DNA of 11,694 nt from a virus (taxonomy: Duplodnaviria > Heunggongvirae > Uroviricota > Caudoviricetes). The notes beneath the pieces are model-generated. The model had not been told where the DNA came from. It did no database searches and saw nothing but the letters and a program-made list of their open reading frames with translations. The position numbers and the translations under genes are program-made. Where the stretch lies: the IMG/VR virus record IMGVR_UViG_2671180437_000003, positions 1 to 11,694 of that record. One strand, written 5' to 3'. Each line of letters starts with the position of its first letter. The stretch's first letter is position 1. Positions 2,413 to 5,926 of this stretch are shown here, one piece after another.

Positions 2413-4350
2413 GTGACTCTTAAACGGGCCTGTTCCCTGCTGACGGTGAAATCCTTCAGCGAGGATGAACGGGTGATCACCGGGATTGCGTCAACGCCTT
2501 CTCCGGATCGGGATGGTGACATCCTGGAGCCGGAGGGGGCGGAGTTTGGCAGTACGATCCCGTTTCTCTGGCAGCATGACCATTCCCGCCCTGTAGGCCA
2601 GTGTACGGTGCGTCGGGTCAGGGAAGGGCTGGAAATCACGGCAATGCTGGTGAAGCCGGAGCCGGGGATGCCCTCCCAGATGGCAGCCCGGCTGGATGAG
2701 GCCTGGGCTGCCATTAAGACCGGGCTGGTCAGGGGGCTTTCTGTGGGCTTCCGGCCCCATGAATACACTTATCTGGACGGAGGCGGACTGCATTTTCTGC
2801 GCTGGGAGCTGATGGAGGTGTCTGCCGTCACCGTGCCCGCGAATGCGGAATGCACCATCCGGACCATTAAATATTTCGACCGCCCGTTTTCTGCCGCGTC
2901 CGGCAACCGGAAACCGGTGGTGAAAATCGCATCTTCTGCCGGCGCTTCGGCACAGTCAATCACCTCTTTTCATAAGGAAAAGTCAGCAATGAATACTGGT
3001 GAACAGATTAAAAGTTTTGAAAACAAGCGTGCGGCGCTGGCAGCCTCCCTTGAGGAGATCATGAACAAAGCCGCAGAGGAAGGCCGCACACTGGATGTGG
3101 AAGAGGAAGAGCACTACGACAACACCGCAGCGGAAATCCGTCAGGTGGATGCGCACCTGAAGCGTCTGCGTGAACTGGAAACCAGTAAGGCCGCCACGGC
3201 ACAGCCGGTGAAACAGGCCGGTAACGGGAATGTGGCCACGGTGGCTTCAGCGCCGGTGATCCGTGTTGAGCAGAAACTGGAGAAGGGGATTGGTTTCGCC
3301 CGCTTTGCCAAATCACTGGCCGCGGCTAAAGGTGTCCGCTCTGAAGCCCTGGAAGTGGCCCGTCGTCAGTATCCGGATGACAGCCGTCTGCATCATGTCC
3401 TGAAATCGGCGGTGGGGGCAGGGACCACCACGGACCCACAGTGGGCAGGCAGCCTGTCTGAATATCAGGAATACGCACAGGACTTTATTGATTACCTGCG
3501 TCCTCAGACCATTATCGGGCGATTTGGTCAGGGCGGGATCCCTGCTCTTCGTCAGGTGCCGTTCAATATCCGCGTGCATGCCCAGGTGTCCGGCGGTGCT
3601 GCCGGCTGGGTGGGGGAGGGTAAGGCAAAACCCCTGACGAAGTTTGATTTTGAATCCATCACCTTCAGTCATGCGAAGGTGTCGGCCATTGCGGTACTGA
3701 CGGAAGAATTGATCCGTTTTTCCAGTCCGGCAGCTGATGCGCTGGTCCGTAATGCGCTGGCAGAAGCGGTGGTGGCGCGTCTGGACACAGACTTTGTGGA
3801 CCCGAAAAAAGCTGCAGTGGCAGATGTCTCCCCGGCGTCCATCACCCATGATGTGAAGGGCACGGCATCAACCGGTAACCCGGATGCGGATGCCGAGGCC
3901 GCGTTTGGCCAGTTTGTGACGGCAAATCTGCAGCCCACTGGTGCGGTCTGGCTGATGTCCAGCACCAATGCCCTGGCGCTGTCCATGCGTAAAAATGCGC
4001 TGGGTCAGAAGGAATATCCGGACATGACCCTGCTGGGCGGGATCTTTCAGGGGCTTCCGGTGATTGTCTCCCAGTATGTGGGTGACCAGCTGGTACTGGT
4101 GAATGCACCGGATATTTATCTGGCGGATGACGGCGGTGTGGCAGTGGATATGTCCCGTGAAGCGTCACTGGAAATGCAGTCTGAGCCGGGCGGCGACAGC
4201 ACCACACCGTCGCCGGTGGAGCTGGTTTCCATGTTCCAGACCGGCAGCGTGGCCATCCGTGCGGAGCGCTGGATCAACTGGCGTCGTCGCCGTACTGCGG
4301 CGGTGGCTGTGATCACCGGTGTGAACTACGGCAGTGCGTCCGGCGGCTGA
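2413..4350 (+). CDS. Fusion protein: HK97-family prohead protease (S78/U35-like), coiled-coil scaffold (delta) region, and HK97-fold major capsid protein
   Basis: 645 aa ORF, GTG start at 2413 with AGGAGG 5 nt upstream. N-terminal part carries protease-like motifs WQHDHSRPVGQ and GLSVGF; the middle is a charged, coiled-coil-like segment (from MNTGEQIKSFENKRAALAASLEEIMNKAAEEGR); the C-terminal ~400 aa look like an HK97-family major capsid protein. Confidence 0.75.
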   Translation: MTLKRACSLLTVKSFSEDERVITGIASTPSPDRDGDILEPEGAEFGSTIPFLWQHDHSRPVGQCTVRRVREGLEITAMLVKPEPGMPSQMAARLDEAWAAIKTGLVRGLSVGFRPHEYTYLDGGGLHFLRWELMEVSAVTVPANAECTIRTIKYFDRPFSAASGNRKPVVKIASSAGASAQSITSFHKEKSAMNTGEQIKSFENKRAALAASLEEIMNKAAEEGRTLDVEEEEHYDNTAAEIRQVDAHLKRLRELETSKAATAQPVKQAGNGNVATVASAPVIRVEQKLEKGIGFARFAKSLAAAKGVRSEALEVARRQYPDDSRLHHVLKSAVGAGTTTDPQWAGSLSEYQEYAQDFIDYLRPQTIIGRFGQGGIPALRQVPFNIRVHAQVSGGAAGWVGEGKAKPLTKFDFESITFSHAKVSAIAVLTEELIRFSSPAADALVRNALAEAVVARLDTDFVDPKKAAVADVSPASITHDVKGTASTGNPDADAEAAFGQFVTANLQPTGAVWLMSSTNALALSMRKNALGQKEYPDMTLLGGIFQGLPVIVSQYVGDQLVLVNAPDIYLADDGGVAVDMSREASLEMQSEPGGDSTTPSPVELVSMFQTGSVAIRAERWINWRRRRTAAVAVITGVNYGSASGG

Positions 4351-4394
4351 GTCTGATGAGGAGGGCGGGAGGTGAGAGCGTCCCGCAGTAACAG

Positions 4395-4616
4395 ATGGCA
4401 AAAATCCAGTATCTGCAGGGCACGCATGATGCCCGGGCCGGGGATATCCGTGATGTGGCACAGCCGTGTGCGGAGGTGCTGGTTCGCCTGGGGAAGGCGG
4501 AGTACATCACAGCGCGACGTCCGGCAGGTCAGAAAAAGAAACGTGATGCGGAGCATGGCGAATGTGGAACCTTTTGCGGCGAACCCGAAAAAACCAGAAA
4601 TCAGGACGTGACGTAA
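4395..4616 (+). CDS. Small hypothetical protein (73 aa) between capsid and portal genes; function unknown
   Basis: ATG at 4395. Of the three overlapping open frames here this one has the most protein-like composition (MAKIQYLQGTHDARAGDIRDV...HGECGTFCGEP). No strong SD directly upstream, and its 3' end overlaps the annotated portal start. Confidence 0.3.
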   Translation: MAKIQYLQGTHDARAGDIRDVAQPCAEVLVRLGKAEYITARRPAGQKKKRDAEHGECGTFCGEPEKTRNQDVT

Positions 4617-5926
4617 GAGAAGTGGGCTGGCGGTCCCTGTTTCAGGCGATGGCTGAGCCTTTTGCCGGTGCCTGGCAGCAGGGTGTGAAAGCCGATCCGG
4701 AAACCGTTTTGTCCTTTCACGCGGTGTTTTCTTGCATTTCGCTGATATCCCAGGATATCGCCAAAATGCGGCTGCGCCTGATGCAGACGGATACACAGGG
4801 GATCCGCCGTGAAAAACGGCAGGGGGATATTGCCCGTCTCTGTCGTCGTCCCAATGCACAGCAGAATCGTATCCAGTTTTTTGAACTGTGGCTGAACGCC
4901 AAACTGCGTCACGGCAATACGGTGGTGCTGAAAATCCGTAACTCCCGGGGGCAGATCAAAGAACTGCGTATTCTGGACTGGAGCCGGGTTGAACCTCTGG
5001 TGGCGGATGACGGCGAGGTGTTCTATCGCATCACGCCGGACCGGAACTGCGGGATCACGGAGGCGGTGACGGTGCCTGCCCGGGAAGTGATCCACGACCG
5101 GTTTAACTGTTTTTTTCATCCGCTTGTGGGGCTGCCGCCGGTGTATGCCGCCGGGCTGGCGGCCACGCAGGGGCATCATATTCAGGAAAATTCGACGTCT
5201 TTTTTCAGAAATGGCGGCAGGCCATCCGGGGTGATTGAGATCCCCGGCAGTATTACGGAAGAAAATGCGAAAAAACTGAAGAGCAACTGGGACAGCGGGT
5301 ATACCGGCGAAAATGCGGGGAAAACGGCCATTCTGAGCAACGGGGCAAAATACAACCCCACGACGTTTTCACCGGTGGATGCGCAGACGGTGGAACAACT
5401 GAAGATGACCGCTGAAATTGTCTGTTCGGTGTTCCGTGTCCCGGCCTACAAGATTGGCGTTGGCCAGCCACCTTCCAGTGACAACGTGGAGGCGCTGGAG
5501 CAGCAGTATTATTCCCAGTGCCTGCAGACGCTGATTGAGTCCATTGAACTGTTACTGGATGAGGCGCTGGAAACGGGGGAAAACGAGAGTACGGAGTTTG
5601 ACGTCACCACGCTGCTGAGAATGGACAGCGAACGGCGCATGAAAACGCTGGGTGAGTCGGTGAAAAATACGCTTCTCACGCCCAATGAGGCCCGTAAACG
5701 TGAGAACCTGCCGCCCCTGGCCGGCGGTGATGCACTGTATCTTCAGCAGCAGAACTACAGTCTGGAGGCGCTGTCCCGTCGTGATGCCCGTGAAGATCCG
5801 TTTGCGTCGTCCGGGAAAAGAGTTTCAGCCCAACTGCCTGACGGCGCATCTGACGGTAATAAGGCAATCAGTGAAACAGAGCATGGTGCGTTGAAAGCGA
5901 TGTTGAGGGGGATACTGCGAAAATGA
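4562..5926 (+). CDS. Phage portal protein (HK97-family-like); start codon uncertain (ATG 4562 or in-frame ATG 4649)
   Basis: 454 aa ORF containing segments typical of portal proteins (AVFSCISLISQDIAKMRL; FFRNGGRPSGVIEIPGS; VFRVPAYKIGVG). GGAG at 4550-4553 precedes ATG 4562; an alternative in-frame ATG at 4649 (MAEPFAG) would avoid the overlap with the 4395..4616 ORF. Confidence 0.7.
   Translation: MWNLLRRTRKNQKSGRDVREVGWRSLFQAMAEPFAGAWQQGVKADPETVLSFHAVFSCISLISQDIAKMRLRLMQTDTQGIRREKRQGDIARLCRRPNAQQNRIQFFELWLNAKLRHGNTVVLKIRNSRGQIKELRILDWSRVEPLVADDGEVFYRITPDRNCGITEAVTVPAREVIHDRFNCFFHPLVGLPPVYAAGLAATQGHHIQENSTSFFRNGGRPSGVIEIPGSITEENAKKLKSNWDSGYTGENAGKTAILSNGAKYNPTTFSPVDAQTVEQLKMTAEIVCSVFRVPAYKIGVGQPPSSDNVEALEQQYYSQCLQTLIESIELLLDEALETGENESTEFDVTTLLRMDSERRMKTLGESVKNTLLTPNEARKRENLPPLAGGDALYLQQQNYSLEALSRRDAREDPFASSGKRVSAQLPDGASDGNKAISETEHGALKAMLRGILRK

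What the first reader, a model, noticed from the sequence alone, without database searches (positions are those of the whole stretch)
2413..5926. Non-canonical head gene order: portal gene downstream of the protease-capsid gene
In HK97- and lambda-like head modules the usual order is terS, terL, portal, protease, (scaffold), capsid. Here the protease-capsid fusion directly follows terL and the portal-like gene comes after it. This suggests a module rearrangement, or that one of the two calls needs revision.
Basis: partly seen in the sequence, partly recalled or inferred. Interest (0 to 1): 0.45.

Follow-up and report, generated by a model that had tools for sequence, protein, structure and literature searches.

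The report
Capsid-before-portal order is a lineage norm
The capsid gene does sit ahead of the portal gene here, and both gene calls are correct, but this is the normal, long-conserved layout of a widespread family of HK97-like phages, including known Shiga-toxin phages of E. coli, so it is ordinary.

Summary
Observation confirmed. ORF 2413-4350 is an S78 prohead-protease + HK97 major-capsid fusion. ORF 4562-5926 is a complete HK97-family portal (TIGR01537, E 1e-106). The order is terS, terL, protease-capsid, small ORF, portal, 299-aa ORF, head-tail adaptor.

The window is 96-98% identical to long-tailed Stx phages/prophages of E. coli. It has the same gene layout as phage BP-4795 ORF54-60, and this stretch occurs in 1253 of 5426 complete E. 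coli genomes. In all 39 related loci that hold both genes, from E. coli and other Gamma-, Beta- and Alphaproteobacteria and from isolated Pseudomonas, Burkholderia and Rhizobium phages, protease/capsid precedes portal. This holds even where protease and capsid are separate genes. The order is therefore an old, fixed lineage trait, not a local rearrangement and not a mis-call.

By-product: the gene after the portal (5923-6822) is a separate, conserved, fibre-like protein with a chitin-binding-type (CBM5/12) tip. A G5/G6 homopolymer (5907-5911) decides whether it is separate, as here and in all outgroups, or fused to the portal as an 859-aa "portal" in many E. coli phages. Databases call the separate state a frameshifted pseudogene and name the fibre-like protein "portal". 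Both labels look wrong.

The parts
128..691 (+). terminase small subunit (context)
   Evidence: Pfam Terminase_2 E 1.4e-8; phrog_641 E 1.5e-68
688..2349 (+). terminase large subunit (context)
   Evidence: Pfam TerL_ATPase and TerL_nuclease; phrog_9 and phrog_7622
2374..2401 (+). terminator-like hairpin plus T-run in the terL/capsid intergenic gap, just before the AGGAGG ribosome-binding site of the capsid gene
   Evidence: a pattern match only, function not shown
2413..2907 (+). N-terminal S78 (HK97 gp4-type) prohead serine protease domain of the 645-aa polyprotein; the domain end is approximate
   Evidence: PF04586 at residues 48-151. His55 (LWQHD) is invariant. Ser110 (GLSVGF) is kept in all 15 relatives whose aligned stretch covers it
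2908..3420 (+). linker plus helical delta-domain-like (scaffold) segment of the polyprotein; boundaries approximate
   Evidence: TIGR01554, which models HK97 gp5 including its delta domain, aligns model positions 3-355 to residues 204-584; sequence
3421..4350 (+). HK97-fold major capsid protein domain; start approximate
   Evidence: PF05065 at residues 386-635; TIGR01554; PDB 9d9w major capsid protein E 0.0025
4395..4616 (+). small conserved ORF (73 aa) between capsid and portal, overlapping the portal start by 55 nt; function unknown
   Evidence: phrog_26251 E 6e-46; RefSeq WP_001063025.1; 40-57% identical copies at the same position in 15 of the 18 other Enterobacterales loci
4562..5926 (+). 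complete HK97-family portal protein (454 aa)
   Evidence: PF04860 E 4e-81; TIGR01537 E 1.2e-106. Its C-terminal tail KAMLRGILRK* matches the conserved ...MLRG(L/I/F)L(T/K)K* end of the 447-456-aa portals of other Enterobacterales species
5907..5911 (+). G5 homopolymer. G6 at this site in many E. coli phages fuses the portal in frame to the next gene
   Evidence: alignment with WGPS6 and strain Anguil; census
5923..6822 (+). separate 299-aa gene, start overlapping the portal stop (ATGA). N-terminal long helix, helix + PxDG repeats (about 6139-6402), C-terminal beta domain with a CBM5/12-like chitin-binding fold (about 6431-6804)
6819..7145 (+). head-tail adaptor Ad1 (HK97 gp6-like), context
   Evidence: PF05135; phrog_40

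Best explanation
The window is the standard head-neck module of a large lineage of HK97-like siphophages. In E. coli these are the long-tailed Stx and non-Stx lambdoid prophages (Pankowvirus/Marienburgvirus type, e.g. BP-4795). In this lineage the portal gene lies after the protease and capsid genes and directly before the neck genes: terS, terL, protease(+)capsid, small ORF(s), portal, fibre-like gene, Ad1, head closure, gp10-like, tail terminator. Shown: the gene identities, the order, and its conservation. Inferred from what is known of HK97 gp3/gp4/gp5: the 645-aa polyprotein carries an S78 serine protease (His55/Ser110), a delta-domain-like scaffold segment and the HK97-fold capsid domain. 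It would assemble around a portal dodecamer into a prohead and then cut away its own N-terminal third to half, leaving a mature capsid protein of about 300 aa. Gene order has no known effect on this pathway, because all these genes are read from one late transcript. Relative to HK97 the layout is one ancient transposition of the portal gene, since inherited together with the capsid gene.
For: Gene identities. Near-identity (96-98% nt) to Stx1a/Stx2a/Stx2c phages, and presence in 1253/5426 complete E. coli genomes. Same layout annotated in WGPS6, BP-4795, 1717 and E. coli RefSeq. Order terL < protease/capsid < portal in 39/39 loci that hold both genes, down to 32-45% capsid identity. The order also holds where protease and capsid are separate genes (Paracidovorax L034, Burkholderia phage vB_FUBS1, Snodgrassella L027/L028). 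It holds in isolated phages of Pseudomonas, Burkholderia and Rhizobium. Capsid and portal identities to the window co-vary (r = 0.88). terL is sometimes swapped (22-26% identity where the capsid is 32-53%). Catalytic His/Ser are conserved. Asadulghani et al. [quoted passage not shown]
Against: Nothing contradicts the gene identities or the conservation of the order. The assembly and self-cleavage steps are inferred from HK97, not shown for this phage. TIGR01543 (proheadase_HK97) scores below its strict cutoff (44.1 vs 59). The direction of the ancient transposition (portal moved down, or protease-capsid moved up) was not determined. The loci were found by searching with the fusion protein or the downstream gene, so relatives that have the canonical order and a similar capsid could be under-sampled if they lack the peptide seeds used.
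Confidence: 0.9

Rival explanations
1. One of the two gene calls is wrong: the 645-aa protein is really the portal, or the 454-aa protein is not a portal.
For: None found. The only weak point is that the protease and capsid Pfam scores are modest (E 1e-7 and 1e-13).
Against: Both Pfam hits exceed their curated cutoffs. The TIGR01554 and PHROG major-head hits are strong. The portal scores 357 bits against TIGR01537 and aligns end to end with solved HK97-type portals.
Confidence: 0.01
2. A recent rearrangement, assembly artefact or prophage decay specific to this genome moved the portal gene.
For: Many EHEC prophages are defective and mosaic (PMC2669165).
Against: The arrangement is collinear over the whole 11.7 kb with dozens of Stx phages. 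It is present in 1253 E. coli genomes and in 39/39 loci from three proteobacterial classes, including isolated phages.
Confidence: 0.01
3. The order reflects a mosaic junction: a terL plus capsid block from one phage type recombined with a portal plus neck block from another, so capsid and portal are not a co-evolved pair.
For: Phage modules do recombine, and terL identity is decoupled from capsid identity in several loci (L027, L028, L030, L031).
Against: Capsid and portal identities track each other across loci (r = 0.88), and the pair stays adjacent in every locus. The visible recombination break lies between terL and the capsid gene, not between capsid and portal.
Confidence: 0.07

Closest known systems
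Enterobacteria phage BP-4795 (Marienburgvirus, NC_004813) ORF54-ORF60, and Pankowvirus Stx phages (WGPS6, 1717, 2851, YYZ-2008)
   Same: Same genes in the same order. terL, capsid fusion and portal are 94-99% identical at protein level. BP-4795 and 1717 also have the 454-aa portal followed by a separate downstream ORF.
   Different: The number of 54-aa repeats in the downstream gene differs: this window 299 aa, 1717 407 aa, BP-4795 461 aa. WGPS6, 2851 and YYZ-2008 carry G6 and so a fused portal (859 aa in WGPS6).
Bacteriophage HK97 head module (terS, terL, portal gp3, protease gp4, capsid gp5)
   Same: Same protein families: HK97-type portal (PDB 8cez, E 4e-20), S78 protease with the His/Ser pair, HK97-fold capsid with a delta-domain-like segment, and gp6/gp7/gp10-like neck genes.
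   Different: The portal gene lies after, not before, protease and capsid. Protease and capsid are fused into one ORF. Two extra genes are present: the 73-aa ORF and the fibre-like 299-aa ORF.
Isolated phages Pseudomonas vB_PaS_IME307, Burkholderia vB_FUBS1 and Rhizobium RHph_X2_26
   Same: Same order terL, protease/capsid, small ORF(s), portal, with capsid 38-49% identical. IME307 and RHph_X2_26 also carry the fibre-like gene right after the portal, annotated there as '(putative) portal protein'.
   Different: FUBS1 has separate protease and capsid genes and no fibre-like gene. RHph_X2_26 has an SGNH hydrolase gene inserted before the portal.
NCBIfam NF045541 'prohead protease/major capsid protein fusion protein'
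   Same: The same kind of end-to-end protease-capsid fusion.
   Different: The window protein scores 52.6 bits against a cutoff of 525 and matches only over the protease part, so it is a different fusion lineage.

Membership tests
HK97-family portal protein (Pfam PF04860 / TIGR01537) | Profile match above the curated cutoff | tested here: met
   PF04860 273.1 bits (cutoff 39.1); TIGR01537 356.8 bits (cutoff 112.05) for 4562-5926
HK97-family portal protein (Pfam PF04860 / TIGR01537) | Full-length coverage compared with solved portals and with orthologues | tested here: met
   The 95%-identical relative aligns at residues 43-420 to 50-424 of the 431-aa chain 9lbn_H, and at 45-400 to 53-409 of the 424-aa chain 8cez_A. 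Orthologous portals in other species are 447-471 aa and share the same C-terminal tail
HK97-family portal protein (Pfam PF04860 / TIGR01537) | Forms the dodecameric ring at one capsid vertex | not testable with these tools
   Needs virion proteomics or cryo-EM
Peptidase S78 (HK97 gp4-type prohead protease) | Pfam PF04586 match above the gathering cutoff | tested here: met
   32.7 bits against a cutoff of 21, residues 48-151
Peptidase S78 (HK97 gp4-type prohead protease) | TIGR01543 equivalog cutoff | tested here: not met
   44.1 bits against a cutoff of 59: a diverged member, not an equivalog
Peptidase S78 (HK97 gp4-type prohead protease) | Conserved catalytic His and Ser | tested here: met
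   His55 in LWQHD is invariant. Ser110 in G-L-S-V-G-F is kept in all 15 relatives covering it. That these correspond to HK97 gp4 His65/Ser114 is from my own knowledge of the family
HK97-fold major capsid protein (PF05065 / TIGR01554) | Profile matches above cutoffs, including the delta-domain part of the model | tested here: met
   PF05065 51.4 bits (cutoff 24.2); TIGR01554 77.1 bits (cutoff 27.5), model positions 3-355 on residues 204-584
NF045541 protease/capsid fusion family | Score above the family cutoff | tested here: not met
   52.6 bits against a cutoff of 525
Canonical HK97/lambda head gene order | Portal gene lies between terL and protease/capsid | tested here: not met
   The portal follows the capsid gene in the window and in 39/39 related loci
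BP-4795 / Pankowvirus-type head module | Same gene set and order with near-identical proteins | tested here: met
   (94-99% protein identity, same order)

The most novel reading that the evidence does not exclude
The gene after the portal is not part of the portal. It is a separate, very widespread fibre-like protein with a variable-length repeat stalk and a chitin-binding-type tip. In E. coli a slippage-prone G5/G6 tract switches it between a free protein and a C-terminal extension of the portal. Both states are common and both occur in described phages. The tract might therefore act as a heritable (or ribosomal/transcriptional slippage) switch that changes virion composition, rather than as a simple inactivating mutation.
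Probability: 0.15. Interest if true: 0.5.

Novelty: already known. Interest (0 to 1): 0.2.

Why it matters
For the finding itself it matters little. It shows that the terL-portal-protease-capsid order is a habit, not a rule. A whole lineage of HK97-like phages, very common as E. coli prophages, keeps the portal gene next to the neck genes instead. Automated checks that flag capsid-before-portal as an error would be wrong for this lineage.

The by-product has practical value. In this phage group, RefSeq flags intact 454-aa portal genes as frameshifted pseudogenes. NCBI and PHROGs also name a fibre-like carbohydrate-binding protein 'portal protein' across many genera, apparently because of the fused E. 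coli form. This can bias judgements of which EHEC prophages count as defective.

Tried and rejected
1. Literature searches for a described protease-capsid fusion with a downstream portal found no explicit discussion. The only relevant remark is in PMC2669165, that some Sakai prophages have a slightly different head-gene organisation. The BP-4795 paper (PMC1317009) is not held.

2. I looked for a terminator after the capsid gene that could explain the order by expression level. None was found. The only good hairpins lie before the capsid gene and before the major tail gene, and the total count equals the shuffle expectation.

3. Phage phi330 was considered as proof that the fused portal works in an infective phage. 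Its record has many extra split genes, probably sequencing errors, so it was not used.

4. Programmed frameshifting between the portal and the next gene was considered. It was rejected as the general mechanism, because outgroups have ordinary 1-16-nt start/stop overlaps and no conserved slippery site. It cannot be excluded for the E. coli G-run.

5. L029 (Parasphingorhabdus) shows a capsid-like ORF followed by a protease-like ORF and no portal hit. It was not resolved.

6. The first protein-database search was swamped by near-identical and partial E. coli entries. A Marinobacter query was needed to see the diversity.
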